Shown here piece after piece: positions 4,017 to 53,081 of a stretch of DNA of 64,000 nucleotides (its first letter is position 1; each line of letters starts with the position of its first letter). Position numbers and translations under genes: made by a program. Source of the DNA: Candidatus Nomurabacteria bacterium (GTDB lineage: Bacteria; Patescibacteriota; Patescibacteriia; HK-STAS-PATE-3); assembly GCA_023898465.1 (NCBI GenBank), contig CP060223.1, positions 256,001 to 320,000 of the forward strand. The letters run 5' to 3'. A model generated the notes under the pieces. The model searched no databases. It saw nothing but the letters and a program-made list of their open reading frames with translations, and was not told the origin of the DNA.

Positions 4017-4398
4017 TCTAGGTAAACAAAAGACCGGTCTTGCTTTATCAGACCCTGATCAGCGCTGGGCCTTTGGACGTGGTATCGTCAAGGGCAGTAT
4101 TGAAGATGTAGTAAAGGCGATTACTGACATTCGGACTACTGATGAGATTGAGCGCGTGGTAATTGGCTTACCGCTTTCTCTGCAAGGTACGGGTATAGGG
4201 GAGCAAGAGCAGTGGGTCCGCGAACAGGCTGAAAAGATTCGCCAAGGTGTGCAATTGCCCGTAGAGTTTATGGAAGAACGTTTTAGCAGCGAGATGGGGA
4301 GGCGTTTGCAGCAAGAGGCGGGCAAAAAAGGGGACGATGATGAGGCGGCAGCGAAAATTATTTTGCAGTCTTATTTAGATCAGCGTTTTCGCACATGA
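3994..4398 (+). CDS. ruvX: YqgF/RuvX-like putative pre-16S rRNA nuclease / Holliday junction resolvase
   Basis: 134 aa. The N-terminal ILALDLGKQKTGLALSD and later VIGLPLSLQG match the YqgF family pattern. Confidence 0.8.
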   Translation: MARILALDLGKQKTGLALSDPDQRWAFGRGIVKGSIEDVVKAITDIRTTDEIERVVIGLPLSLQGTGIGEQEQWVREQAEKIRQGVQLPVEFMEERFSSEMGRRLQQEAGKKGDDDEAAAKIILQSYLDQRFRT

Positions 4399-6016: not shown

Positions 6017-6346
6017 ATGCCTAAAGAAGAAAACAAGCAACTCGCGGTTATTGCCCAGGGCGGACGTCAATATGTAGTTCGGCCAAACGCAAAAATTACG
6101 GTCAATTCTTTCACCCATGAAGGCGACACTGTCACGCTCGATAATGTGCTTTTAGTGCATGATGGAAAAACCACCAAGGTTGGTAAGCCTCAAGTGGAGG
6201 GTGCCACGGTTACCGCAAAAGTGCTGAAAGTAGGCAAAGGTAAAAAAGTAGTTATTCAAAAGTACAAGCCAAAGGTACGATACCGTCGCAAGACCGGTCA
6301 TCGCCAAGGTATTGTTGAATTGCAGATACAGGATATTCATTCCTAA
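6017..6346 (+). CDS. rplU: 50S ribosomal protein L21 (bL21)
   Basis: 109 aa. AVIAQGGRQYVV...KVLKVGKGKKVVIQKYKPKVRYRRKTGHRQ matches the bL21 pattern. Confidence 0.9.
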   Translation: MPKEENKQLAVIAQGGRQYVVRPNAKITVNSFTHEGDTVTLDNVLLVHDGKTTKVGKPQVEGATVTAKVLKVGKGKKVVIQKYKPKVRYRRKTGHRQGIVELQIQDIHS

Positions 6347-10972: not shown

Positions 10973-11391
10973 TACTTGACAACCCACTTCACAGGAGTAC
11001 ACTAAATGCACAATTGGTGGCGATCTCTGCCTGGCACTGACCAGGTTGTCCGGAGACGCCATGTTTTTGTATGCGCGTGTTCTTCCTCCTTGCCGCAGGG
11101 TGTAGCTCGGCTCCGCTCGCTACCCATTTCTCGGCATCGGTCTCTTTGCGATGATCGAAACGAAGAGCGTCTTTTTCTACTCTCCTGCAGGGGCGGTGCG
11201 GGAGCGCGGAATAGTTCCGGGCTTCATTTCCTCACATGAGGAAAGCGGCTTTGTTGCCGTTTTGCACCTTGAAATGCATGGAGGTTCGCCATGACTTGGC
11301 GTTTCCGACTCTTCCTGCTCATGGCCATCGCGTTGACCATGACACCCCTCGCTTTCATGACCGGCTGCCAGGAGCTGCCGACGGAGGGGGA
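10973..11391 (+). repeat. Copy A of a duplicated promoter + leader + lipoprotein signal-peptide module
   Basis: Near-identical to 14570..14894, except for a block of about 94 nt present only in copy A and a few substitutions. It ends 33 codons into the downstream CDS. Confidence 0.9.
10976..11003 (+). promoter_or_regulatory. Sigma70-like promoter (TTGACA-N16-TACACT) of module copy A
   Basis: Consensus -35 hexamer and a near-consensus -10, conserved base for base in copy B (14573..14600). Confidence 0.5.
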
Positions 11392-12028
11392 TTCACAGGA
11401 TCAAGTGGTTGAGAGTCCGGAAGCTCAACCCGGTCCAGCGATTCAGTCTACTGGGCCCGAATGGTATAATCAGGTCGTAAGTGAAGCAAAGTACACATTG
11501 TGCCAGCTTCGAAACGGCACATCGCATGAGGTCTATCAGGGTAAGGCTATGGGTGATTGGCCCTACCCACATCAAGGGGATTGTTGTAACGCCCTTGGTG
11601 TAGTCCGTCAATATATGTACGGTGGTGGCTCTCCAGGACCGCTTGGCGAATGGAATGGCTTCCAGCAAGGCGGTTGGTGCAAGTTCTTTGTCAACTTGGT
11701 GCTCTACCGCTCTAGCTATGGCTACCCGGGCGGACATTTGCTCTTGCCCACTTCTACGTATCGTTACAATAATCCACGCCCGGTTTCCGAAGCACAACCT
11801 GGATGGATCTTGCAGTCAGAAACACTACCTCATACTGCGATCGTAGTAGAACGACTAGGCGGTGGCTTGGATGTAATCGATTCAAACTGGATCGGAACTT
11901 ACAAGCGTCCGGACGGAAGTTATTACTACTCATATGCCATCGCAAGGCATGAAATCACAAATACGGAGTTGGATCGCTACGATTTCATGGCATATCGTCC
12001 GCATGAGGCGTGCGTGCTGCATAACTAG
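11291..12028 (+). CDS. Lipoprotein, CHAP / NlpC-P60 superfamily peptidoglycan amidase/peptidase
   Basis: Signal peptide with lipobox (LAFMTGC). Candidate catalytic Cys in GGWCKFFVNLV and His in LPHTAIVVE...DVIDSNW, the CHAP-like Cys/His/polar arrangement. Shine-Dalgarno GGAGG lies 7 nt upstream. Confidence 0.75.
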   Translation: MTWRFRLFLLMAIALTMTPLAFMTGCQELPTEGDSQDQVVESPEAQPGPAIQSTGPEWYNQVVSEAKYTLCQLRNGTSHEVYQGKAMGDWPYPHQGDCCNALGVVRQYMYGGGSPGPLGEWNGFQQGGWCKFFVNLVLYRSSYGYPGGHLLLPTSTYRYNNPRPVSEAQPGWILQSETLPHTAIVVERLGGGLDVIDSNWIGTYKRPDGSYYYSYAIARHEITNTELDRYDFMAYRPHEACVLHN

Positions 12029-14569: not shown

Positions 14570-14894
14570 TACTTGACAACCCACTTCACAGGAGTACACT
14601 AAATGCACAATTGGTGGCGATCTCTGCCTGGCACTGACCAGGATGTCTGGAGACGCCATGTTTTTGTATAGGCGTATTCCACCCTCCCTTGCCGTGGCGT
14701 TGGGGAGCGCGGAATAGTTCCGGGCTTCATTTCCTCACATGAGGAAAGCGGCTTTGTTGCCGTTTTGCACTTTGAAATGCATGGAGGTTCGCCATGACTT
14801 GGCGTTTCCGACTCTTCCTGCTCATGGCCATCGCGTTGACCATGACACCCCTCGCTTTCATGACCGGCTGTCAGGAGCTGCCGACGGAGGGGGA
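14570..14894 (+). repeat. Copy B of the duplicated promoter + leader + lipoprotein signal-peptide module
   Basis: See copy A. The two copies are offset by 3597 nt at the 5' end. The first 33 codons (MTWRFRLFLLMAIALTMTPLAFMTGCQELPTEG) are identical at protein level. Confidence 0.9.
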
Positions 14895-15492
14895 GACTTC
14901 GGTGATCTCTGATGAGTTGCCGGATGCTTCACCCTCAGCTCAGTCAAGCCCGATGACTTGGCCCTCTTCGATCCAGGATTTCAAACTCCCTTATGATGGG
15001 ATCCGGGATGCATGCGGGGGTCAGATTTGGAAGGTTGTTTGCGGGTACGGATGTGGTTATCATCACAACACAAACTACATGGCCGCCGCGTACCATTCGA
15101 TTGATCTTGTACGGCAGGATGCGCCGACCACTCATAGCGCAGTACTCGCTCCGGCGCGTGGCATCGTTTCGTTTGTCGGATGGAGGAATGGGTACGGTTG
15201 GTGCGTGGAGATGGATCATCGAAACGGCTGGAAGTCGCTTGTGGCCCATCTCGAAACGGATCCTTGGGAATTCGTCCATACCTATGACGACCTGCGGCAG
15301 GGGACTTTCCTGGGCTATGCAGGGAACAGCGGAGCGAGTACGACACCCCACATTCACTTCTCGGTGTGGCGGAACAACGTCACTCATACGCTCGATGGCG
15401 TATCGTTGATCAACCCGCGTCTAAATGGGCGATACAATTCCGGCAATGATTATGTTGCGCCACCGACGGGAAATCCGAACCCGATTCCTTAA
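14794..15492 (+). CDS. Lipoprotein, M23 (LytM/lysostaphin-type) metallopeptidase
   Basis: The N-terminal 33 aa are the same as in the CHAP protein. GNSGASTTPHIHFSV matches the M23 HxH motif. An upstream YHSIDL stands where HxxxD is expected, with spacing one residue short. Confidence 0.8.
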   Translation: MTWRFRLFLLMAIALTMTPLAFMTGCQELPTEGETSVISDELPDASPSAQSSPMTWPSSIQDFKLPYDGIRDACGGQIWKVVCGYGCGYHHNTNYMAAAYHSIDLVRQDAPTTHSAVLAPARGIVSFVGWRNGYGWCVEMDHRNGWKSLVAHLETDPWEFVHTYDDLRQGTFLGYAGNSGASTTPHIHFSVWRNNVTHTLDGVSLINPRLNGRYNSGNDYVAPPTGNPNPIP

Positions 15493-16940: not shown

Positions 16941-17600
16941 ATGTTAGGTTATCTTTTGCTCATTATATCGGTTGTAGAGTTTTTTATTGGCCTGTACCTT
17001 ATTTTTCGCTATGAAAAAAGCCAGGCAACAACATATTACGGTCTCTTTGCAATAAGTGTTGCGATCTATGTTGCCGCGAACGGTTTCGGATTTACCCGAG
17101 CTTCTGATAACGAGTTTATTTTTGAGCAACTTGCTTGGTTTGGCGGCTTACTTAGCGCCCCATTTATCCTTGGCTTCAGTTATAGCTTTCCTAGCCCTAA
17201 AAAATATCCCACTGAGCTATTTCCGTGGGTAATTTGGCCAGTAGTGTTATTTGGCGCAGGAATTTTTACTTCAAATATTTTCCTGGAGAAAACGTATATT
17301 TATTCCTTTGCCGAAGGCTACACTGCGCCAATCGGTGTCTTTTTCTGGTTCGCCATTGCAGTATTTGCGATGTATTGGATATGGGCAATACGAAACCTGC
17401 TGTATACGAGATTGCACACAAGCGGTTTTTATAGGAATTTTCTTACCATTGTGCTCATAGGGCTTTTTTCATCACTGCTTATTTCAGCAATTTTTGATAT
17501 TTACATTCCCTTAGTTTCAGTCACGCGCTACGGATATATTGGAGCATTATTCTCGTCTATTTGGCTGTTTACTACCGCGTATTTAATGGTGAGGAAGTAA
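16941..17600 (+). CDS. Stand-alone 7TM module, paralog 1 (histidine-kinase N-terminal 7TM-like)
   Basis: 219 aa with about 7 hydrophobic helices. Aligns by eye with the first 230 aa or so of the kinase at 23014. Ends ...TTAYLMVRK* where the kinase reads ...ISYAIIRHR and continues. Confidence 0.8.
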   Translation: MLGYLLLIISVVEFFIGLYLIFRYEKSQATTYYGLFAISVAIYVAANGFGFTRASDNEFIFEQLAWFGGLLSAPFILGFSYSFPSPKKYPTELFPWVIWPVVLFGAGIFTSNIFLEKTYIYSFAEGYTAPIGVFFWFAIAVFAMYWIWAIRNLLYTRLHTSGFYRNFLTIVLIGLFSSLLISAIFDIYIPLVSVTRYGYIGALFSSIWLFTTAYLMVRK

Positions 17601-17601
17601 G

Positions 17602-18261
17602 ATGATTGGATATATATTACTCATTATCTCAGTTGTTGAAGTAATACTCGGTTTTTATTTGATTTTTCGATATGTAAAAAGTCCAGCAACTATATATTAC
17701 GGCCTATTCGCGCTAAGTGTAGCACTCTATGTAGGTGCAAACGGGTATGGTTTTAGTCCGTTTTCAGAAAATGATATATGGCTGGAAATAATTGCCTGGA
17801 TTGGCGGGACCTTTACCGCTCCTTTTATTCTTGGCTTCAGTTACTCATTCCCTTATCCACGTAAGTCCAATAAGGAAATACTGTCTTTAGTTCTTAGTCC
17901 ACTCGTTTTTTTCTTCGTCGTAATACTTTTTTCTAATACTTTTGTAGATCATAATAGTGTTATCAGCTTTGATGAAGGATTTCAAAGACCTGTCGGGGAG
18001 TTACACTGGTTTGTATTATCAGTATTCTTTTTCTATTGGGTTTGGTCTTTTATTGAACTAGTAAAGAGTCGAAAAAAATCCGACGGCTTTAATAAGAATT
18101 TTCTTCTTATTTTAATTATAGGCTTAGTTTTTTCTTTGTTGGTTTCGGTATTTACTAACATCATTCATCCACTTGTCGATGTTTCAAAGTTAGGTTATAT
18201 GGGCCCCTTAGCCTCTTCAATCTGGCTATTTATTACTGGGTACTTGATATTGAGGAAGTAA
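17602..18261 (+). CDS. Stand-alone 7TM module, paralog 2
   Basis: 219 aa, collinear with paralog 1 (LLIISVVE..YLIFRY.KS.AT.YYGLFA, APFILGFSYSFP, SSIWLF). Starts 1 nt after the upstream stop. Confidence 0.8.
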   Translation: MIGYILLIISVVEVILGFYLIFRYVKSPATIYYGLFALSVALYVGANGYGFSPFSENDIWLEIIAWIGGTFTAPFILGFSYSFPYPRKSNKEILSLVLSPLVFFFVVILFSNTFVDHNSVISFDEGFQRPVGELHWFVLSVFFFYWVWSFIELVKSRKKSDGFNKNFLLILIIGLVFSLLVSVFTNIIHPLVDVSKLGYMGPLASSIWLFITGYLILRK

Positions 18262-18932
18262 TGAACACCTTTCATTTAGTTTTACTTTTTACACTTTTCT
18301 TTATTCACGCGACTCTCGCAATATGGATGTTGCGTAGATATGTGCAGACGCTATCCATTCGTTATTACTCAGGCTTTTTATTTGGACTAGCACTTATTGC
18401 ACTATTAAATGGTTTATTGCTGTTATTTGGCGGTCAGGAGAGTCAAACAGTCCTTCATAAGATCGGCTTTATCTCAGGCACCTTCACTTTTGTGATGTTC
18501 TTTATGTTTAGTAAGTACTTTCCAATTTCTACTGCAAGACCAAACTCCCGCGACATTCTTTTTTGGGTAATTCCGATTACATTTTTTATTCCATTCATAC
18601 TTTTTAATCAGCAGTTTATCCAGTCTGTGATTATAGAAAATGGAATAAGTAAGCCTACATTTGGAGTCTGGTATACACCATTTATGTTAGTTTTGGCCAC
18701 CTTTGTTCTGGGGGCTATCTATAATCTCATACAGAAATATAAAATAACCACTGAACTTGAAATTAGGAAGAACATTAGAGACATTACGGCAGTATTTTTC
18801 GTATCAGGACTCCTTGGCTTTTTGTTGGACGTTGTGTTGCCAAGGTTTAATGTTTATACGGCACATTACTTTGCCATTGAATCTTCACTTTTTGTTGCGC
18901 TAACTACTGCAATTATTATTGCAAAGAAGTAA
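18261..18932 (+). CDS. Stand-alone 7TM module, paralog 3 (divergent)
   Basis: 223 aa with the same helix layout. TAATG overlap with paralog 2. Ends ...AIIIAKK*. Confidence 0.75.
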   Translation: MNTFHLVLLFTLFFIHATLAIWMLRRYVQTLSIRYYSGFLFGLALIALLNGLLLLFGGQESQTVLHKIGFISGTFTFVMFFMFSKYFPISTARPNSRDILFWVIPITFFIPFILFNQQFIQSVIIENGISKPTFGVWYTPFMLVLATFVLGAIYNLIQKYKITTELEIRKNIRDITAVFFVSGLLGFLLDVVLPRFNVYTAHYFAIESSLFVALTTAIIIAKK

Positions 18933-37126: not shown

Positions 37127-37312
37127 ATGTTACAGCTTAATTCATCAATGCTCGCCAGAGCCTTTCTCTGGTTCGGCCTCGTTTGTGGGTTGTTTGCCGT
37201 ATTAACCCAGCTGTCTGGTAAGACTTTCTTTGCCAGCTCGTTTTTCTATCTACAGGCCGGTATTTTAGGCGTCTTAGCCAGCATTGCCGTCCGAATGGAT
37301 AAGAATAAGTAG
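37127..37312 (+). CDS. Small two-TM membrane protein, hypothetical
   Basis: 61-aa hydrophobic ORF. Confidence 0.35.
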   Translation: MLQLNSSMLARAFLWFGLVCGLFAVLTQLSGKTFFASSFFYLQAGILGVLASIAVRMDKNK

Positions 37313-37381
37313 TTTGAGCAGGGCCATAATGAAGGGCTTGGCGAATTGCGTAGTTTTTGTTACCCTACGCTGGTATTTCGG

Positions 37382-37456
37382 GGCCCTATCGTCTAGTGGC
37401 TAGGACGCATGGTTCTCATCCATGTAACAGGGGTTCGATTCCCCTTAGGGCTACCA
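37382..37456 (+). tRNA. tRNA-Glu (anticodon CUC), CCA encoded
   Basis: Acceptor GGCCCTA/TAGGGCT (G1-U72), D-stem GTCT/GGAC, anticodon stem CATGG/CCATG with loop TTCTCAT, T-arm AGGGG-TTCGATT-CCCCT, and ACCA. Confidence 0.85.
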
Positions 37457-37522
37457 GCCCGCTTAGCGGGCTCTGCTGATAAGGATAGAAGAAAGTAAAA
37501 GTGGAATGTTTAGCATGTTGTT

Positions 37523-37860
37523 TTATAAGTTAAGGAATCGAACGGGCGAGGACGTCTGCCAGCGGCAGGCGACCGCAAGCCCCGGCCTGAAGTCCCGATA
37601 GGGACGGAATGGTCGATTCCCCTTAGGGCTACCACGGGCCATTGCGCCGTGCGGACTGCGTCCGACCAGGTCGGACTCCGCCCTTACGGCGCATGTCCCT
37701 TTCCCCATTGCAAACAGTCCCTCTCGGCAGCCTCGAGGTCCTTGGTTTGCAACGGGGGCCCCGATAAGAGTGCGGGCCCAAGTGCTCGGCATTACAAAGC
37801 GTCCCAGAAAAAATGCCAGACACAAGTCTTCGGCATTTAATGAGAAGAAGACGTAGGTCA
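37523..37860 (+). other. GC-rich, hairpin-dense noncoding segment (candidate structured RNA or remnant of foreign DNA)
   Basis: Only overlapping, low-complexity ORFs on both strands. Successive strong hairpins include GTCCC-GATA-GGGAC and a stem of about 19 bp at 37642-37690. Strand assignment is tentative. Confidence 0.3.
37613..37634 (+). repeat. Exact 22-nt direct repeat of the tRNA-Glu 3' end (att-like)
   Basis: TCGATTCCCCTTAGGGCTACCA occurs at 37435-37456 (inside the tRNA) and again at 37613-37634. The second copy has no upstream tRNA body. Confidence 0.85.
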
Positions 37861-37927
37861 ACTTCAGAGTGAGTCACCACAAACATCGTCGCTGCGCTAG
37901 AGGCAGCATAATTCAGGAGGAAAAAAT

Positions 37928-38467
37928 ATGTCACGTAGCGTACTCATTTTCATCGTACTCCTCGTTATCCTCGCAGTAGGCGGTGGAATTGTTTGGTGGA
38001 TGGTCACCAACCCAAGCGAAAATAGCAACACAAATAATGCCGTTGTCGCGAATACCAACACTGAGGTGAATGCAAATGCTGCACCGAATATTGATGTACA
38101 GGCCGGTGCGGTGGATGTAGGACGAGAAGCCTTGCTGACCAGTGCGAACTTCCGCGCCAGCTCAGCTTCATTGCTCAGCGAATTTGACGGCCTAAGCGCC
38201 GCTGAAGATAAAAGCTACCTGGTTGTCTATTACATGTTGACGCCTTACGAAGGATCAAGCGAAAACGTGCCAAATCTGAACGATCAAAACGTTTCAGTCA
38301 GCAGCGGTGACACTTCCTATACACTGCAAGCAATTGGCACCACCCAGAGCGAAACTGATGGCGAAGAACTTGGCTATCTGCGTTTCGAAGTGCCTGTTGA
38401 CGCAAGCGGATTTGTCCTAACGATTTTAGACGGCGACATAGAGCAGACGATTGATCTGGGCTTTTAA
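37928..38467 (+). CDS. Hypothetical membrane-anchored exported protein
   Basis: 179 aa with an N-terminal TM helix and an asparagine/threonine-rich linker. Shine-Dalgarno AGGAGG. Confidence 0.55.
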   Translation: MSRSVLIFIVLLVILAVGGGIVWWMVTNPSENSNTNNAVVANTNTEVNANAAPNIDVQAGAVDVGREALLTSANFRASSASLLSEFDGLSAAEDKSYLVVYYMLTPYEGSSENVPNLNDQNVSVSSGDTSYTLQAIGTTQSETDGEELGYLRFEVPVDASGFVLTILDGDIEQTIDLGF

Positions 38468-39666: not shown

Positions 39667-42600
39667 ATGGACTCTGCCCCATTAACACTACAAACGAAGA
39701 CACTGCAGAGGTCTTCCGATCTAAATAATTACAGACTCTATCGCGCAGCTCTTGAATGGGAGTTGATTGATCCTATTGTCATAGAAGACCGGGATGACAT
39801 GCATTCCGAAAGTAGTTGGCGTGATCGTCTTGAGCCGTATCATCATCAAGTAACTAACCTAATAACTTTTTGTCGTCGCCTACCTGTTACTTTACTGGCG
39901 GATGATGTCGGGTTAGGAAAAACAATTAGTGCTGGCCTAGTTTTAAGCGAGTTAATTTCGCGCGGGAGAATTTCAAAAATATTAATAGTTTGCCCAAAAA
40001 TACTTCGAGATCAGTGGAAAGAAGAATTGGAAATAAAGTTCCGAATTCCGTCCACAATTGTGACAGGAAGAGAATTAATTACGGCAAAGCCTCCTGAAGA
40101 ACCAGGAGCGGTAATTACCACATACAATACGGCCAGACTGTATTTAGATAGAATTGACCAGAATGGTTTTGAAATATTGATACTTGATGAGGCGCATAAA
40201 TTGCGGAATCTATATGGTGTTGACCCAACACCTCAAGTTGCAATTAAATTCCGTAAAGCTCTGGCTGACCGGATGTTTAAGTACGTATTAATGTTAACTG
40301 CAACGCCGATCCAGAACAGACTATGGGATCTCTACTCGTTGGTTGACTTATTAACCGTTGCACGCGGCCATGAAAATCCCTTTGGAACGCCAGGTATTTT
40401 TGCGAGAAAATTTATTGCAGATAGTCGCACACAAGCGCGTCAGCTTAATCCGGAGATGCGGGATGAGTTTCGCTCAATTATTTACGGTTATATGTCTCGG
40501 GTTCGTCGTGGAGATGCAAAACTCCACTTCCCAGAGCGGGTAGTACAGTTGCATAAAGTTGACCCAACACCAGAAGAATTGCAGTTGATCGGTGTGGTCG
40601 GAAAATCTATACAACAACTGAATGCGCTTACACAAATTGTAATCCTCCAAGCTTTGGTGAGTAGTCCAGAAGCGCTAATAAAGATGTTAGAAGGAATGGC
40701 TAAAAAAGGAACCGTACCGCGTGAGGTGTTGGCGAACGTTAAGGAATCAGCCAAAGAAATTCAAATCACTACAAAACTAAAAGGTTTGGGCGCGTTAGTT
40801 GAAAAACTTAGAAAGGAGCAACCCAATACTTGGCGGGTGGTAGTTTTTACAAGATGGCGAGAAACTCAAACAACTATCGAAACTTTTCTTGAAAAGCAAG
40901 GAGTAAAATGCGGCTTGATAAATGGCGATTCAAGTAAGCGAAATCAGGAAACAATCCAAAGATTTAAAAAAGACTTACCAGACATTAATGTAATTATTTC
41001 TACTGAAGCAGGTTCGGAGGGCGTTAACCTTCAGGCCGCTAATGTTTTGGTTAATTACGATCTCCCCTGGAATCCAATGATAGTGGAACAAAGAATAGGT
41101 CGTATTCAAAGACTTGCTTCTAATTATGCAAATGTTTCTATTTTTAATATTGTTTTGCAAAATACCTTTGAAGAATATATTGTAGGGCGCTTGATGGAAA
41201 AGTTGCAGATGGCTTCTCATGCAATTGGGGATATTGAAGCACTATTGGAAGCATCCGGCATTGATGAAGGTGAAGAAAATGGCTCAAGTGGTTTTGAAGA
41301 AAAAATTCGCCAGTTAGTAGTTGCATCTTTAGCTGGAAAAGATGTTGAGCAGGCAACTCGTAAAGCTGAACAGAGTATTTCAGAAGCTAAAACAGAATTA
41401 GACCATGAAGAAAAGAACATTAATGCTTTACTTGGGGGGATGAGTGATTCTCTAGATTCTGGTCCAAGATGTCCGAAGCTTCCTCAAACTACTAAGTCGA
41501 TGGATGTCCGTGATTTTACTACGGCTGCTCTTATGAGCTTAGGCGCGGAACTACATCCAAAAAAGGATGGTTTATTAGTTTCACAACTTGCTGGGAAAAA
41601 AGAATTAATCCGATTTGATAATAACACTCTGAGCAGTGAAGAGGAGAGTGTCTTATATGCACCGGGAACTTCAACTTTTGAACGCTTAGTCCATAAAGTT
41701 GCAAATGTAGGAAAACACATTGTTGAAGACCTTGATAAAAACCCCCAACAGCAAATTGAGAAAGTAAGTCGTCAATGGGTCGAAAGTTTTGGCGGAGACT
41801 TCGAAAATGTAACGGTAGAGGACGTTTCTCGATGTTTTGCAGGAGTAGCAATAATTCGTGCAAGATCAACAGTAGCTCACGATAGTTATGAGCGTCTCAT
41901 TGAGGTTTCGTGCGCTCCCACTGAGCATTTCAGTTTTGTGACAAGAACGGGATTGGAACCCATCGGAGACTATATTGAAAATCCGACATCTGTTGGTGCG
42001 CTTTCAGAAAAATTAATTGAAAAAGCCAGCCAAGACTCGAGTATTCTTGAGTTCTGTAGATTTTATTTAGAACGAAGATCTCAAGAAATTGCCTCCGCAG
42101 GAAATGACGAAAGAAAAAAGAAAAAGCTTGAGGATGAGTTTACGCCCCGTCTTGAATTTTCCCTAGTCGGTCTTGAGGGCAAGGTTCATCGGATAGTTAA
42201 AAATCAGGTCTCTTATAGAATTGAACGTGAGGGCCAATACAAAAGTACCCTCATGATAACCCCCTCTTCTGGGCAAGTTGATATGCCGGGGATGGGACAA
42301 TGCATGAAAACAGGTAAGACTGTACCGAGCGATTGCTTAGCAAAGTGCGAAATAAGCGGACTTATAGTATTGCGGCATTTTCTTGATCAATCAGAGATCA
42401 GTAATCGACTGGCGCTCCCTGAGCACATCGTTTTATGTACGTTAAGCAACAAGCGAGTGCTAGCGGACGAAGCTATAAAATCAGATGTTACGGGCAAACT
42501 AGTCGCAAAGAAGTTTTTAAAAACATCTTCTCTGAGTGGCAAATTCGCTGAACCACAGTTCATTAACACTTGTGAGTTTACAAAAACAGAAGTTCTGGAA

Positions 42601-43194
42601 AGCGAAATTGCGGTCAGCCAGATTTCAGGAAAAAGATATCGCATTGATGAGCAACTTAAATCCGCAGTTTCAGGAAAACTAGGCCATCGACAAGAATTTG
42701 TAGCAAGTAGTATTTCATCAGCCCCACTTCTTGAAGAAGAAGCCATTCGTTCGGTCACTGGAAAATTTTGTGCACCAATGGAAGCGAGGCCCTGCACTTG
42801 GAGTGGTCGAAAGTGTCACCCCGAAGACCTTAGGACTTGCGAGTTGACCGGAGTCCAAATTCATTCAGAGTACGTAACGCTCGAACCACCAATTCGTTTA
42901 GAAACCCTAAATAATCTTTTGAATGGCACGAGGAGCAAATCTGACAAATTGGAAGTATGGCCTTCACTTTCAAATAGCGTTACAGCTTTATTAAAAGCAA
43001 AACGTTGTAAAATTGAAACAGCAGAAGTTTCACCTAGTGACGATATTTTGGCCGCTTCTATAGAGCTTCGAACTTTTCTAGGCCTGCGCGTGAGTCACAT
43101 TGGCGTACTTTATTCAATAAAGGATGGATCCGTAGTCGGGCGTGTTGCTAGAGGCAAGCGTGGTGATAAGGGCTGGAATCAAACTAAGAACTAA
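39667..43194 (+). CDS. SNF2-family helicase/translocase with a long C-terminal extension containing 15-residue repeats
   Basis: Motif I LADDVGLGKT, motif II LILDEAHKLRN, motif III LMLTATPIQN, helicase-C STEAGSEGVNLQ and QRIGRIQRL. About 650 further aa follow. AT-rich relative to the flanks. Confidence 0.85.
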   Translation: MDSAPLTLQTKTLQRSSDLNNYRLYRAALEWELIDPIVIEDRDDMHSESSWRDRLEPYHHQVTNLITFCRRLPVTLLADDVGLGKTISAGLVLSELISRGRISKILIVCPKILRDQWKEELEIKFRIPSTIVTGRELITAKPPEEPGAVITTYNTARLYLDRIDQNGFEILILDEAHKLRNLYGVDPTPQVAIKFRKALADRMFKYVLMLTATPIQNRLWDLYSLVDLLTVARGHENPFGTPGIFARKFIADSRTQARQLNPEMRDEFRSIIYGYMSRVRRGDAKLHFPERVVQLHKVDPTPEELQLIGVVGKSIQQLNALTQIVILQALVSSPEALIKMLEGMAKKGTVPREVLANVKESAKEIQITTKLKGLGALVEKLRKEQPNTWRVVVFTRWRETQTTIETFLEKQGVKCGLINGDSSKRNQETIQRFKKDLPDINVIISTEAGSEGVNLQAANVLVNYDLPWNPMIVEQRIGRIQRLASNYANVSIFNIVLQNTFEEYIVGRLMEKLQMASHAIGDIEALLEASGIDEGEENGSSGFEEKIRQLVVASLAGKDVEQATRKAEQSISEAKTELDHEEKNINALLGGMSDSLDSGPRCPKLPQTTKSMDVRDFTTAALMSLGAELHPKKDGLLVSQLAGKKELIRFDNNTLSSEEESVLYAPGTSTFERLVHKVANVGKHIVEDLDKNPQQQIEKVSRQWVESFGGDFENVTVEDVSRCFAGVAIIRARSTVAHDSYERLIEVSCAPTEHFSFVTRTGLEPIGDYIENPTSVGALSEKLIEKASQDSSILEFCRFYLERRSQEIASAGNDERKKKKLEDEFTPRLEFSLVGLEGKVHRIVKNQVSYRIEREGQYKSTLMITPSSGQVDMPGMGQCMKTGKTVPSDCLAKCEISGLIVLRHFLDQSEISNRLALPEHIVLCTLSNKRVLADEAIKSDVTGKLVAKKFLKTSSLSGKFAEPQFINTCEFTKTEVLESEIAVSQISGKRYRIDEQLKSAVSGKLGHRQEFVASSISSAPLLEEEAIRSVTGKFCAPMEARPCTWSGRKCHPEDLRTCELTGVQIHSEYVTLEPPIRLETLNNLLNGTRSKSDKLEVWPSLSNSVTALLKAKRCKIETAEVSPSDDILAASIELRTFLGLRVSHIGVLYSIKDGSVVGRVARGKRGDKGWNQTKN

Positions 43195-43195
43195 T

Positions 43196-44686
43196 ATGAA
43201 CCCTCTACTTACAAAAACCGATTATCTTCTTTACCGGGAATGCCCAAAGAATGTTTGGTATAAAATCCAAAAACCTGAATTGTATGCTACATCGGAGCTA
43301 ACAGAGTTTGAAAAATCGATAATGGAAACAGGTAATGAGGTTGAAAAGATTGCAAGGCAACTTTTTCCAAACGGGGTGTTAGTAACTTATCGTGATGCGC
43401 GCGGTCAAGCTGAGACACAAAAGCTATTGGCGGAGAACAAGGATGTGATTTTTCAGCCAGTTTTTGTCAAAAATAACTTTTTGGCTGCTATTGATGTTCT
43501 ACAAAAAGAAAAGAATGGCAAGGGCTACAATGTTTACGAAATAAAATCGACTAGTGATGTAGATAAGAAAACACATTTTCACGACCTAGCATTTCAAGTA
43601 AACGTTCTCAGAATGACAGGCCTGGGAATTAATAAATCATTTGTCATTCATCTAAACTCTGAATATATTCGAAAGGGAGAAATTGAGCTGGATCAGTTAT
43701 TTAAAGTATCAGATGTGACGGATGAAGTAGAAAGTCTTTTACCGGATGTTGCGACTGAGGCGGAAGAAGCATTGAAGTATATTAGCCAAACTTCTGAACC
43801 AGAGGGGTACTGCTGCTGTATTTATAAAGGTCGATCAAGGCATTGTTCAACCTTTCAGCTAGCGAACCCCGAAGTACCCGAATATAGTGTCCACGATATT
43901 TCTAGGATAGGGGTAAGCAAGGCTAAATTAAAAGAGCTAATTGACGGAAGTATTTTTCACCTGGACAAGATTCCGCCACACATTAAATTAAGCGAAATTC
44001 AACAAGGTCAAGTTGAAACCTATAAATTGAATAAGGTATTAGTAGATAAGGAAAGAATTGCGGAAGAATTTAGTGGTCTCACATTCCCACTTTATTTTCT
44101 TGATTATGAAACATTTCCATCAGCAATACCAAGATATGATGGCTTTTCACCATATAAACAAATTCCGTTCCAGTATTCTGTTTACAAACTAGATTCAGTC
44201 GAGAGTGAGCCAACTCATTTTGATTTTTTGTACTCTGGTCCCGAAGACCCCAGCAAGCACTTTGCCGAGTCTTTAAGGGAACATATCGGGGATAAAGGCT
44301 CGATCATCGTTTGGCATAAAGACTTCGAGTGTGGCAGAAATAATGAAATAGGTAGTCGAATTCCTACTTCGAAGGCTTTTTTTGACTCTGTTAATCAGCG
44401 AGTATACGATCTCGAAGACATTTTCAAGAAACAATACCACGTTCATCGAGATTATAAGGGAAGCACATCTATTAAAAACGTATTGCCTGTTTTAGTGCCA
44501 GAATTAACGTATAAAGACCTTGAAATTCGTGATGGTGGCAGTGCAGCGGATAGTTGGGACAAAATAATTAGTGGTGTATATAACGAGACAGAGAAAGAAA
44601 AGGTAATAAAAGATTTAAAGATTTATTGTGGTCTTGATACATTTGCAATGTATGCTATTTGGAATTGCTTGAACAAGCTACTCTAA
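43196..44686 (+). CDS. DUF2779-like dual nuclease (N-terminal Cas4/RecB-like PD-(D/E)XK with Cys cluster + C-terminal DEDD-type exonuclease-like half)
   Basis: The ATG lies 1 nt after the SNF2 stop. YRECPKNVW ... AAIDVL ... VYEIKS ... GYCCCIYKGRSRHC gives a D..ExK motif plus four Cys. The C-terminal half has YFLDYET, WHKDFE, and YCGLDTFAMY. Confidence 0.65.
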   Translation: MNPLLTKTDYLLYRECPKNVWYKIQKPELYATSELTEFEKSIMETGNEVEKIARQLFPNGVLVTYRDARGQAETQKLLAENKDVIFQPVFVKNNFLAAIDVLQKEKNGKGYNVYEIKSTSDVDKKTHFHDLAFQVNVLRMTGLGINKSFVIHLNSEYIRKGEIELDQLFKVSDVTDEVESLLPDVATEAEEALKYISQTSEPEGYCCCIYKGRSRHCSTFQLANPEVPEYSVHDISRIGVSKAKLKELIDGSIFHLDKIPPHIKLSEIQQGQVETYKLNKVLVDKERIAEEFSGLTFPLYFLDYETFPSAIPRYDGFSPYKQIPFQYSVYKLDSVESEPTHFDFLYSGPEDPSKHFAESLREHIGDKGSIIVWHKDFECGRNNEIGSRIPTSKAFFDSVNQRVYDLEDIFKKQYHVHRDYKGSTSIKNVLPVLVPELTYKDLEIRDGGSAADSWDKIISGVYNETEKEKVIKDLKIYCGLDTFAMYAIWNCLNKLL

Positions 44687-44690
44687 ACCT

Positions 44691-45392
44691 ATGAGCTTTC
44701 TTAAGATTTTTAGTGATGATTCTAAAGACAAGCCAAAAGAAAATGATAGTCGGAAACCTGAATGTCCATACTGTCAGGGCGTTTTAGTTAAAATTCCTGC
44801 TAGAAAAACAAAATGTTTTCACTGTGGGAAATATATTTTTGTACGAACACAGACAAAGGACAGAAAGCTCGTTTTGGTTACTGAAGAAAATTCGGCCGCG
44901 ATAGACTCTGAATGGGAGTCAAAACAAGCCGCTACGATCACTTCATTGGTGGAGAAAGTAGATTTTACAAAGAAAAAAGAAGGTCTGCGCGAAGGGTTTG
45001 GGGACAAGGAACCCTCCGTTAGTGACATAAAGTGGGGCTTGTGGAACAAGAGGCTTCAGGAAGCAATGAAACGCAATGATTTTTCAGAACTTTCAGGAAT
45101 ATATTTTCAAATGGCTCTGCGCTTGCACGAAAGTGGAAAAGACAGCTTTAAACTTCAGGGCCAGGCTCAAAAAATGTTTTTGTTTAAAGAAAAGCAAAGC
45201 GGTGTTGTTTCTAGCGTAGAGGTTTTTTCTAGAGATGGCTGTGAAGAATGTAAGAAAATAAACGGAAAGAAATTTGTTATTTTTGAAGCACTAAAACTCA
45301 TGCCACTACCCGTTCAATCCTGCACAAACAAACTGAATAAGAATGCGCCCAATGGTTGGTGTCGATGCACTTTTCTTCCTTTTATAGATTAA
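44691..45392 (+). CDS. Hypothetical protein with N- and C-terminal zinc-ribbon-like Cys motifs
   Basis: CPYCQG-x17-CFHCGK at the N-terminus. CEECKK ... SCTN ... GWCRCTF at the C-terminus. The middle is predicted helical. Confidence 0.5.
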   Translation: MSFLKIFSDDSKDKPKENDSRKPECPYCQGVLVKIPARKTKCFHCGKYIFVRTQTKDRKLVLVTEENSAAIDSEWESKQAATITSLVEKVDFTKKKEGLREGFGDKEPSVSDIKWGLWNKRLQEAMKRNDFSELSGIYFQMALRLHESGKDSFKLQGQAQKMFLFKEKQSGVVSSVEVFSRDGCEECKKINGKKFVIFEALKLMPLPVQSCTNKLNKNAPNGWCRCTFLPFID

Positions 45393-52757: not shown

Positions 52758-53081
52758 ATGTCCTGCACTTTTACCTTTCCCGTACCCAAGGGCGTCACGG
52801 AGTTTCGGATCACCACACCCAATTCTGAGAAACTGGCCGGCACCGGACCTCGCTGGGTGGAGGTCAAGGAAGGCTGGACCAGATCCTACAAGCCGATCGA
52901 GGGTGGGCCTGGTACCATCAGAGTGACCAAGGTTGGTCAGGTGCGAGGCGGACACCGTATGGTGACCGTCGAGCTGGTCGACATGACCGCCACCTACGAG
53001 GCGGTGCTGCACTGCAAGCCGGCACCGAGCCAGGCAGTGCAGGAGGCCAGACAGGAGGTCCCGGTCGCCCAAGCATCCTAG
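52758..53081 (+). CDS. Hypothetical protein in a GC-rich micro-island
   Basis: 107 aa. Shine-Dalgarno AGGAGGGAG upstream. A terminator-like hairpin (AACGGCC/GGCCGTT plus T-run) lies at about 53106-53140. Confidence 0.45.
   Translation: MSCTFTFPVPKGVTEFRITTPNSEKLAGTGPRWVEVKEGWTRSYKPIEGGPGTIRVTKVGQVRGGHRMVTVELVDMTATYEAVLHCKPAPSQAVQEARQEVPVAQAS

What the first reader, a model, noticed from the sequence alone, without database searches (positions are those of the whole stretch)
37435..37634. 22-nt exact duplication of the tRNA-Glu 3' end 156 nt downstream of the gene: an att-like scar
TCGATTCCCCTTAGGGCTACCA (T-loop 3' half, acceptor 3' strand and CCA) occurs in the tRNA (37435-37456) and again at 37613-37634 without a tRNA body. 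This is the signature left by elements that integrate into tRNA 3' ends (attL/attR). The intervening 156 nt hold only a small hairpin and an AT-rich stretch, so most of any element has been lost. Alternatively, the GC-rich DNA just downstream is its remnant.
Basis: partly seen in the sequence, partly recalled or inferred. Interest (0 to 1): 0.5.

Follow-up and report, generated by a model that had tools for sequence, protein, structure and literature searches.

The report
Leftover insertion scar beside tRNA-Glu
The last 22 bases of a glutamate tRNA gene are repeated 156 bases downstream inside about 350 bases of GC-rich, non-coding DNA that related genomes lack, which is the usual footprint of foreign DNA that once inserted into the tRNA gene and has since decayed.

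Summary
TCGATTCCCCTTAGGGCTACCA occurs exactly twice, at 37435-37456 (end of tRNA-Glu CTC) and 37613-37634; shuffles expect none. Two relatives with the same gene order have the same tRNA followed by only 63 or 95 AT-rich bases. The window therefore carries about 350-400 extra, GC-rich, non-coding bases (37457-~37810). A distant Kerfeldbacteria genome has the same layout at the same tRNA. Its own, different 22-mer is repeated 162 nt downstream and followed by a truncated serine recombinase gene.

The att-scar reading is supported, but the anatomy is less simple than proposed:
- The extra DNA lies on both sides of copy 2.
- Half of the 156-nt spacer is GC-rich and highly structured.
- A 10-nt inverted copy of the T-loop lies 79 nt (85 nt in the other genome) before copy 2. 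Ordinary phage att sites lack this.

The 64-kb window has no integrase, transposase or reverse transcriptase, and no Rfam family matches the block. The two genomes' inserted DNA is not demonstrably homologous.

Verdict: a decayed, non-autonomous integration remnant at a tRNA hot spot. It is a new member of a known kind and of modest interest.

The parts
37382..37456 (+). tRNA-Glu (anticodon CTC), intact, CCA encoded; the integration target
   Evidence: ARAGORN; Rfam tRNA 62.5 bits. Orthologous tRNA at the same position in L086, L091 and L005.
37435..37456 (+). Copy 1 of the 22-mer (tRNA positions 55-76); attL-type copy inside the functional tRNA
   Evidence: Exact match.
37457..37533 (+). Part A: 77 nt, lower GC, beginning with the hairpin GCCCGCTTAGCGGGC directly after CCA
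   Evidence: Sequence; composition. Absent from empty sites L086 and L091. No similarity to L005 part A (p = 0.88).
37534..37543 (+). Inverted copy of the T-loop region (GGAATCGAAC = reverse complement of tRNA G53-C62); pairs with the start of copy 2 in predicted folds
   Evidence: the repeat finder I9, 10/10 complementary; folds; shuffle p = 0.0175. Same feature in L005 at 6111-6120. Absent from 12 ordinary viral att-type sites.
37534..37612 (+). Part B: 79 nt, GC-rich; two hairpins enclosed by the stem formed by the inverted T-loop segment and copy 2. Folds well only on the + strand.
   Evidence: With copy 2: -47.1 kcal/mol, z = -2.77 on +; z = +0.20 on -. No Rfam hit. Not similar to the tRNA body (p = 0.19).
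37613..37634 (+). Copy 2 of the 22-mer: displaced tRNA 3' fragment (attR-type, or the attL of an older element)
   Evidence: Exact match. No tRNA body upstream.
37635..37810 (.). Part C: about 176 nt, GC-rich, two long near-perfect hairpins (37643-37693 and 37703-37757). Extra DNA relative to relatives; may be a separate older remnant or a separate hairpin element. Right boundary approximate (about +/-20 nt).
   Evidence: Inverted repeats I1 and I4. Fold z = -6.61 on the - strand and -4.09 on the + strand. Part of the GC-richest stretch of the window, the island at 37517-37810 (peak 0.70 vs mean 0.465), which also covers part B and copy 2. No Pfam hit for overlapping ORFs. No Rfam hit. No viral relatives.
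37127..37312 (+). Left chromosomal flank: small membrane protein gene, conserved next to tRNA-Glu in L005, L086, L091 and L094
   Evidence: Alignment A1; called genes.
37928..38467 (+). Right chromosomal flank: 179-aa membrane protein gene, orthologous to the gene that directly follows the tRNA in the empty sites
   Evidence: BLASTP E = 1e-19 (L091), 9e-18 (L086), 5e-11 (L005).

Best explanation
The repeat is the footprint of site-specific integration into the T-loop/3' part of the tRNA-Glu(CTC) gene.

An incoming element carried its own copy of tRNA positions 55-76. Recombination in the T-loop rebuilt a functional tRNA (copy 1) and displaced the other copy downstream (copy 2). What remains in this genome is about 354 nt of non-coding, GC-rich foreign DNA (37457-~37810) with no recombinase, so it is dead or at best mobilisable in trans.

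It is most likely layered. Part C, to the right of copy 2, would be the stump of an older element that once abutted the tRNA at copy 2. The 156-nt A+B piece would be what is left of, or all there ever was of, a later arrival that pushed the older one outward.

Shown: the duplication; the presence/absence polymorphism among relatives; the foreign composition; the parallel case with a recombinase remnant.

Inferred: the recombination mechanism, the order of events, and that the element was once larger.
For: - Exact 22-nt terminal 3' fragment, same orientation, downstream, starting in the T-loop. This is the tDNA plus displaced-fragment signature and a known crossover sublocation (PMC4383910).
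- Empty sites in two syntenic relatives: 63 and 95 nt between tRNA and next gene, against 471 nt here. Flanking genes are orthologous.
- The block is the GC-richest 300 nt of the window (0.70 vs 0.465) and has no coding signal.
- L005 (Kerfeldbacteria, GAPDH 63% identical) has its own 22-mer TCGAATCCCCATGGCGGTACCA duplicated 162 nt downstream of the orthologous tRNA. This lies within about 1.8 kb of extra DNA. That DNA includes a truncated Resolvase-domain ORF 126 nt after copy 2.
- Intact-looking copies of that ORF start 139 nt after a tRNA's CCA in other CPR genomes. This fits copy 2 having been the tRNA end when that element arrived.
- L087 has a 15-nt 3' end of a different tRNA-Glu allele 45 nt after its tRNA, showing that incoming DNA carries tRNA ends.
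- Contigs of several assemblies break at or next to this tRNA or at the block.
- Successive integrations that push older, decaying elements outward and leave partial tRNAs and fragmented integrases are documented for tycheposons (10.1101/2020.12.28.424599).
Against: - No integrase, transposase or RT anywhere in the 64-kb window, and no intact element of this kind was found anywhere.
- The classical model predicts ancestral chromosome to the right of the displaced fragment, but part C is also extra. The same holds in L005, and neither locus has a third copy marking an older right end.
- Both loci keep a similarly small inter-copy piece (156 and 140 nt) with an inverted T-loop segment at -79 and -85. 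That is odd for independent random decay.
- No sequence homology could be shown between the inserted DNAs of the two genomes.
- The nearest relatives are distant (GAPDH 73-74%), so part C could be lineage-specific resident DNA and not foreign.
Confidence: 0.62

Rival explanations
1. A+B+copy 2 is a complete miniature element and not a random stump. It would carry a folded (hairpin-type) attachment site, or a target-matching module made of an inverted T-loop segment plus a direct copy of the tRNA end. It would insert at tRNA-Glu by a non-classical route: recombination of a folded single strand, as with integron attC or CTXphi attP, or some guide-like recognition, with help from a recombinase supplied in trans.
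For: - The inverted T-loop 10-mer is perfectly complementary to each genome's own tRNA and lies at -79 and -85 from copy 2 (p about 0.015 per locus).
- Apart from the window (and L001, the same strain) and L005, the only hits among 882 tRNAs for a downstream inverted T-loop copy were palindromic-loop artefacts or a few phage tRNA islands. None of 12 ordinary viral att-type sites has it.
- It closes an 89-96-nt folded unit in independent MFE predictions, a size within the attC range.
- The inter-copy piece is nearly the same size in both genomes (156 vs 140 nt).
- In both loci the extra DNA is not bounded by the two copies.
Against: - There are only two examples.
- B units are not significantly similar once the 10-mer is removed (p = 0.10), and there is no shared consensus fold.
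- The boxes ATCGAAC/GTTCGAT do not fit the integron R-box consensus, and the interior is branched, not one long stem.
- No integron-type or any other recombinase is in the window.
- The architecture was not found in viral contigs.
Confidence: 0.13
2. The block, or part of it, is a functional non-coding RNA. One version is a + strand RNA co-transcribed with tRNA-Glu that carries a tRNA-like 3' end. Another is a - strand RNA whose 22 nt are antisense to the tRNA-Glu 3' end, acting as a tRNA-binding regulator or primer-binding site.
For: - Stable structure: z = -3.4 and -3.2 for 301 nt.
- Part B folds well only on the + strand (z = -2.8 vs +0.2). Part C folds better on the - strand (z = -6.6).
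- A promoter-like site on the - strand at 37934-37905 points into the block.
- The repeat includes CCA.
Against: - No Rfam family at gathering threshold or at E up to 10.
- Strand preference is inconsistent between parts B and C and absent in L005.
- No common fold or covariation with L005.
- The block is absent from the closest syntenic relatives, so it is dispensable.
- No T-stem 5' strand before copy 2, so there is no tRNA-like arm.
- No reverse transcriptase in the window.
Confidence: 0.1
3. The duplication arose locally, by slippage or break repair that copied the tRNA end, with no mobile element involved. The GC-rich hairpins would be resident lineage-specific DNA.
For: No recombinase and no recognisable mobile-element gene in the window. 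The relatives used as empty sites are distant (GAPDH 73-74%).
Against: - The same 22-nt extent, starting at tRNA position 55, recurs independently in L005 with a different sequence and beside a recombinase remnant.
- L087 has a heterologous tRNA-Glu end.
- The composition of B and C is strongly atypical for this genome.
Confidence: 0.08
4. Assembly artefact: a chimeric join at a short repeat.
For: Several assemblies break near this tRNA.
Against: Two assemblies (the NCBI MAG contig and the Logan contig L001) agree base for base across tRNA, A, B, copy 2 and C. A 22-nt repeat is shorter than usual assembly k-mers.
Confidence: 0.02

Closest known systems
Genomic islands and prophages integrated into tRNA genes by tyrosine integrases (Islander signature; T-loop / T-acceptor junction sublocation; Williams 2002, PMC100330 as cited in PMC4383910)
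   Same: An intact tRNA plus a same-orientation terminal 3' fragment downstream. The fragment starts in the T-loop and runs to the 3' end (22 nt). The site is empty in relatives. The composition is foreign.
   Different: Only 156 nt lie between the copies, and there is no integrase. Islander would reject it on both its length and integrase filters. Extra DNA continues beyond the displaced fragment. An inverted T-loop segment lies inside the inter-copy piece.
Tandem or successive integrations and degenerate remnants at island tRNAs (tycheposons of Prochlorococcus, 10.1101/2020.12.28.424599)
   Same: Newer arrivals push older elements away from the tRNA. Partial tRNAs and fragmented recombinase genes are left behind. 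L005 shows exactly this, with a recombinase fragment beyond copy 2.
   Different: Different phylum (Patescibacteria). The only recombinase trace, in L005, is of the serine family, not the tyrosine family. No intact element was seen. The remnant in the window has no gene at all.
Non-autonomous att-bounded elements (CIMEs, i.e. cis-mobilisable elements derived from ICEs; named from my own knowledge, not checked in the library)
   Same: att sites on both sides, no integrase, potentially mobilisable in trans.
   Different: CIMEs are kilobases long and carry genes. Here there are 156 nt of non-coding DNA, and mobility is untested.
Folded single-strand attachment sites (integron attC; CTXphi attP(+)) (from my own knowledge)
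   Same: Two short inverted boxes 70-80 nt apart that can pair to mimic the duplex target. Unit size 89-96 nt. Geometry: target remainder, cargo, inverted box, loop, target.
   Different: Box sequences do not fit the attC consensus. The interior is branched. No integron integrase or Xer-type evidence. Only two examples.

Membership tests
tRNA-gene integration scar (tDNA + displaced fragment) | Intact tRNA gene plus a fragment of the same gene in the same orientation on the 3' side | tested here: met
   tRNA 37382-37456; fragment 37613-37634, + strand, downstream.
tRNA-gene integration scar (tDNA + displaced fragment) | The fragment is a terminal fragment beginning at a known crossover sublocation (anticodon loop, T-loop, or T/acceptor junction) and reaching the gene's 3' end | tested here: met
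   Identity covers tRNA positions 55-76 including CCA. Same boundary in L005. Sublocations as described in PMC4383910.
tRNA-gene integration scar (tDNA + displaced fragment) | Site unoccupied in related genomes | tested here: met
   L086 and L091: same gene order, 63 and 95 nt after the tRNA, no copy. Caveat: the relatives are distant (GAPDH 73-74%).
tRNA-gene integration scar (tDNA + displaced fragment) | An integrase gene within the interval between the copies | tested here: not met
   The interval is 156 nt. No recombinase of any family in the 64 kb. This is why I call it a remnant and not an island.
tRNA-gene integration scar (tDNA + displaced fragment) | DNA beyond the displaced fragment is ancestral chromosome | tested here: inconclusive
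   Part C (37635-~37810) is GC-rich and absent from L086 and L091. It could be an older remnant or lineage-specific DNA.
Known structured RNA genes (tmRNA, RNase P RNA, group I/II introns, SRP, 6S, T-box and the rest of Rfam 15) | Match to the family covariance model at or near its gathering score | tested here: not met
   Only the two tRNAs pass in the window. Nothing credible at E up to 10 in 37300-37950. ARAGORN finds no tmRNA.
tmRNA (one-piece or permuted) | tRNA-like domain with a canonical T arm and a G3:U70 alanine identity pair | tested here: not met
   Copy 2 has no 5' T-stem strand (AATGG in place of AGGGG), and position 70 is G.
Integron attC-type folded recombination site | Imperfect palindrome of 57-141 nt with complementary R''/R' boxes (RYYYAAC / GTTRRRY) and a nearby integron integrase or cassette array | tested here: not met
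   Unit size (89 nt) and complementary boxes are present. But ATCGAAC/GTTCGAT break the consensus, the interior is branched, and there is no integrase or array. The consensus is recalled from my own knowledge.
Serine-recombinase (resolvase/large serine recombinase) mobile element | Gene with the Resolvase catalytic domain next to the att site | tested here: not met
   Absent from the window (tblastn; Pfam). Present only as a 37-residue remnant in L005.
RNA-guided homing (CRISPR-associated transposon spacer, omega/bridge RNA) | Guide next to a conserved repeat or scaffold, with the cognate nuclease or recombinase gene | tested here: not met
   No conserved scaffold shared between the window and L005. 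No cas, tnpB, iscB or IS110-type gene.

The most novel reading that the evidence does not exclude
A+B+copy 2 (about 180 nt) is a complete, self-contained miniature mobile element of candidate-phyla-radiation bacteria. It would recognise tRNA-Glu through two built-in copies of its target: an inverted T-loop segment and a direct copy of the tRNA 3' end. These would fold into a hairpin-type attachment site. The element would be moved by a recombinase supplied in trans, possibly of the serine family, whose fragments litter tRNA-adjacent sites in these genomes.
Probability: 0.1. Interest if true: 0.7.

Novelty: new member of a known kind. Interest (0 to 1): 0.3.

Why it matters
Integration scars at tRNA genes are textbook biology, so the main finding is ordinary. 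It does mark tRNA-Glu(CTC) as a recombination hot spot in a group of ultra-small, little-studied bacteria (Patescibacteria/CPR) in which few mobile elements have been mapped.

Two side results could matter more if they hold up:
- The recurring inverted T-loop segment inside a tiny att-bounded unit hints at a miniature element or an unusual attachment-site architecture.
- A highly conserved serine-recombinase N-terminal fragment is spread across many CPR lineages and sits next to tRNA genes. As of PMC4383910 (2014), tRNA-gene targeting was known only for tyrosine integrases.

Tried and rejected
- **Known RNA gene containing the 22-mer.** Rfam at gathering threshold and at E up to 10 found nothing, and ARAGORN found no tmRNA. 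The tmRNA features are absent.
- **Copy 2 as the end of a decayed second tRNA.** The left flank and part B do not resemble the tRNA body (p = 0.19 and 0.42).
- **Coding remnant in the GC block.** The three overlapping ORFs have no Pfam hit.
- **Homology of the window insertion with anything held.** blastn against all loci, phages and plasmids found nothing. A vs A (p = 0.88), C vs C (p = 0.61) and B vs B without the 10-mer (p = 0.10) are not significant. The earlier p of about 0.01 for B vs B was driven by the shared T-loop complement.
- **Shared RNA fold for window and L005.** RNAalifold gave only -7.9 kcal/mol, so I built no covariance model.
- **attP in viruses.** The window 22-mer occurs once in IMG/VR, inside a jumbo-phage tRNA gene. 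A degenerate 22-mer gave 24 non-tRNA att-type sites, none with the inverted segment. Two architecture patterns gave 31 loci, none with a duplicated tRNA end. Hairpin cores of parts B and C gave only chance 17-23-nt palindromes or nothing.
- **Metagenome scan with the small membrane protein.** One locus, no tRNA.
- **Other GC-rich parts of the window.** The region after tRNA-Lys looks like an ordinary minus-strand gene from its ORF layout only. The island at 52.8-53.1 kb is a small protein-coding gene.
- **Retroviral-type primer-binding site or guide-RNA readings.** No RT, cas, tnpB or IS110-type gene in the 64 kb.

Full report
**Observation.** The window encodes tRNA-Glu(CTC) at 37382-37456 (ARAGORN; Rfam 62.5 bits). 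Its last 22 nt are TCGATTCCCCTTAGGGCTACCA. They cover tRNA positions 55-76: six of the seven T-loop bases, the 3' strands of the T stem and acceptor stem, the discriminator and the encoded CCA. They recur exactly at 37613-37634. No other match with up to three mismatches exists in 64 kb, and none appeared in 100 shuffles. Copy 2 has no tRNA body. ARAGORN finds no second gene, and the sequence to its left does not resemble the tRNA beyond chance (p = 0.19). A separate Logan assembly (L001) is identical across the whole arrangement.

**Anatomy.** The tRNA is followed by four parts.
- Part A (37457-37533) has lower GC and starts with a hairpin directly after CCA.
- Part B (37534-37612) is GC-rich. 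It starts with GGAATCGAAC, the exact reverse complement of tRNA positions 53-62 (I9). In predicted folds this segment pairs with the start of copy 2 and encloses two hairpins.
- Copy 2 follows.
- Part C (37635-~37810) is GC-rich and made of two long, nearly perfect hairpins (I1 and I4).

The block is the GC-richest stretch of the window, peaking at 0.70 against a mean of 0.465 with SD 0.071. It matches no Rfam family at gathering score or at E up to 10. ORFs overlapping it have no Pfam hit.

**Context.** The genes around it are ordinary chromosome: asnS, aspS, scpA/B, tpiA, gap, a small membrane protein, then the tRNA, a 179-aa membrane protein, a GT4 glycosyltransferase, and further on hrcA-grpE-dnaK-dnaJ. 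A Pfam/PHROGs inventory of the window's larger ORFs (about 55 of the 64 in a non-overlapping set of at least 110 aa) found no integrase, recombinase, transposase or reverse transcriptase. The organism is a Patescibacteria (CPR) MAG labelled Candidatus Nomurabacteria. Its nearest relatives in the protein collection have GAPDH only 68-74% identical.

**Empty sites.** Two relatives, L086 and L091, keep exactly the same gene order. Their tRNA-Glu(CTC) is followed by only 63 and 95 AT-rich nt before the orthologue of the 179-aa gene (orthology E = 9e-18 and 1e-19). They have no second copy and no GC-rich block. The window has 471 nt in that interval, so about 350-400 nt are extra. That extra DNA lies on both sides of copy 2.

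**A parallel case.** L005 (Kerfeldbacteria, GAPDH 63% identical) has the orthologous small membrane protein and tRNA-Glu(CTC), with a different acceptor stem and T-loop. Its own last 22 nt, TCGAATCCCCATGGCGGTACCA, recur exactly 162 nt downstream, and there is no third copy. The repeat starts at the same tRNA position (55).
- A 10-nt perfect complement of L005's own T-loop region lies 85 nt before copy 2, against 79 nt in the window (p about 0.015 per locus by shuffling).
- None of 12 ordinary att-type tRNA-end copies on viral contigs has such a segment within 220 nt.
- Among 882 tRNAs I held, the other hits were palindromic-loop artefacts or a few phage tRNA islands.
- In L005 the orthologue of the 179-aa gene lies about 1.8 kb after the tRNA. 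Nearly all of that extra DNA is to the right of copy 2.
- 126 nt after copy 2 starts an ORF whose first 37 residues match the Resolvase catalytic domain (E = 2e-4), after which the similarity stops.

**The recombinase fragment.** A search with that fragment returned about 100 proteins. All are 36-77 aa, come from many CPR lineages, and share the first 37-53 residues at 75-92% identity before diverging at different points. In contigs I could fetch, the fragment travels with a 445-aa and an 89-aa ORF in at least four different neighbourhoods. It is repeatedly next to tRNA genes: its ATG is 139 nt after the CCA of tRNA-Leu in L197 and L205, and it points at the 3' end of an antisense tRNA-Arg in L207-L210. 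None of those loci has a duplicated tRNA end. The 126-nt spacing in L005, with the same start region CAAAACTATGAAATAC, suggests that copy 2 was the tRNA end when that element arrived, and that the 140-nt piece now between tRNA and copy 2 came later. This is inference.

**Other signs of a hot spot.**
- L087 has CCGGTGGGGCTACCA 45 nt after its tRNA-Glu. This is the 3' end of a different tRNA-Glu allele (the type seen in L088), so DNA carrying foreign tRNA ends has landed there.
- Contigs from several assemblies end inside or just after this tRNA. L094 ends in the T-loop, L095 24 nt after the tRNA and L092 56 nt after.
- Two assemblies of the window's own strain start inside or just right of part C.

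**Interpretation.** The data fit the classical picture. An element carrying a copy of the tRNA 3' end recombines in the T-loop, regenerates the tRNA and displaces a terminal fragment (PMC4383910). The layered form of that picture is documented for tycheposons: later arrivals push older, decaying elements away from the tRNA, leaving partial tRNAs and fragmented recombinase genes (10.1101/2020.12.28.424599). I rate this at 0.62. It needs the older element's right-hand att copy to have been lost in both genomes. It also does not by itself explain why both keep a similarly small inter-copy piece with an inverted T-loop segment.

**What remains unexplained, and the rivals.**
- Miniature element (0.13). 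The inverted segment plus the direct copy enclose an 89-96-nt foldable unit. This recalls folded single-strand attachment sites (integron attC, CTXphi), or a target-matching module, and would make A+B+copy 2 a complete miniature element. Against it: there are two examples only; the B units are not significantly similar once the 10-mer is removed (p = 0.10); RNAalifold finds no shared fold; the boxes do not fit the attC consensus; no recombinase is nearby; and the architecture was not found in IMG/VR.
- Functional RNA (0.10). This is weakened by inconsistent strand preference. Part B favours the + strand and part C the - strand, and L005 shows no preference. It is also weakened by absence from the closest relatives.
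- Local duplication without a mobile element (0.08) does not explain the independent recurrence in L005 or the heterologous end in L087.
- An assembly artefact (0.02) is contradicted by two concordant assemblies.

**Limits.** I had one scan each of the genome and metagenome collections and used the second poorly. No closer relative and no intact element was found. I cannot show homology between the window's insertion and L005's, so I do not call them one family. The right boundary of the insertion (~37810) is set by composition only.

**Verdict.** It is a decayed, non-autonomous integration remnant at a tRNA hot spot in a CPR genome. That makes it a new member of a known kind, of modest interest (0.3). 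One loose end is worth a systematic survey: the inverted T-loop segment together with the two-sided extra DNA.

Noticed in passing
L005 6345-6542; P0121-P0224; loci L197-L210: A serine-recombinase N-terminal fragment (first 37-53 residues, 75-92% identical) occurs as about 100 short ORFs (36-77 aa) across many CPR lineages. No full-length protein appeared among the hits. It is truncated at different codons and is often next to tRNA genes (139 nt after tRNA-Leu; facing the 3' end of an antisense tRNA-Arg). Some tails back-translate to T-arm-like DNA. In L207 it is flanked by inverted copies of a motif (AAAAGTCAA...CGCTCGGCGRCCAA), which is MITE-like.
   Followed up: partly
L197 2914-4736 (also L198, L205, L206): The 62-aa recombinase fragment, a 445-aa ORF (weak BNR/Asp-box hit only) and an 89-aa ORF move together as a unit through at least four different genomic contexts. 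L198 also has a full-length 553-aa large serine recombinase whose 3' end overlaps a tRNA-Thr called on the opposite strand (4324-4398).
   Followed up: partly
L084 4611-4684 (IMGVR_UViG_3300033405_000002, 332 kb): A jumbo-phage-like contig carries its own tRNA-Glu(CTC) whose acceptor stem and T arm (last 22 nt) are identical to the window's tRNA, while the D and anticodon arms differ. It sits in a tRNA island next to an HNH-like ORF (labelled by eye from the translation). Possibly a phage of this lineage.
   Followed up: partly
window 39667-45392: An SNF2-family helicase (1175 aa), a DUF2779 protein (514 aa) and a 233-aa zinc-ribbon-like protein lie between GT4 and hrcA. In L091, GT4 is followed directly by hrcA-grpE. 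This is therefore a separate insertion of about 5.7 kb, possibly a defence-type module.
   Followed up: partly
L087 5994-6053: 45 nt after tRNA-Glu (acceptor type GCCGCC) lies CCGGTGGGGCTACCA, the 3' end of a different tRNA-Glu allele (as in L088). It is followed by several small ORFs without family hits.
   Followed up: partly
L005 5728-6003: A GIY-YIG nuclease ORF (Pfam E = 2e-15) ends inside the 5' end of tRNA-Glu and is preceded by about 400 nt of GC-rich non-coding DNA. Neither is present in the window.
   Followed up: no
window 52758-53081: The second-strongest GC island of the window (0.67) is a 107-aa ORF with an RBS and a terminator-like hairpin. It has no PHROGs hit (Pfam was not run on it) and looks horizontally acquired.
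   Followed up: partly
window 10973-11391 and 14570-14894: Two direct repeats (192 nt at 99% and 110 nt at 95%) about 3.5 kb apart, lying upstream of or overlapping the starts of ORFs 11291-12028 and 14794-15492 (the latter an M23 peptidase).
   Followed up: no
window 16941-18932: Three tandem paralogous ORFs of about 219 aa (661-671-nt period). The first has a HisKA_7TM-like membrane domain.
   Followed up: no
L094 end; L095 end; L092 end; L002 and L003 starts: Contigs from five independent assemblies break inside or within about 60 nt after tRNA-Glu(CTC), or at the right edge of the window's GC block. This suggests strain-level heterogeneity at the site.
   Followed up: no
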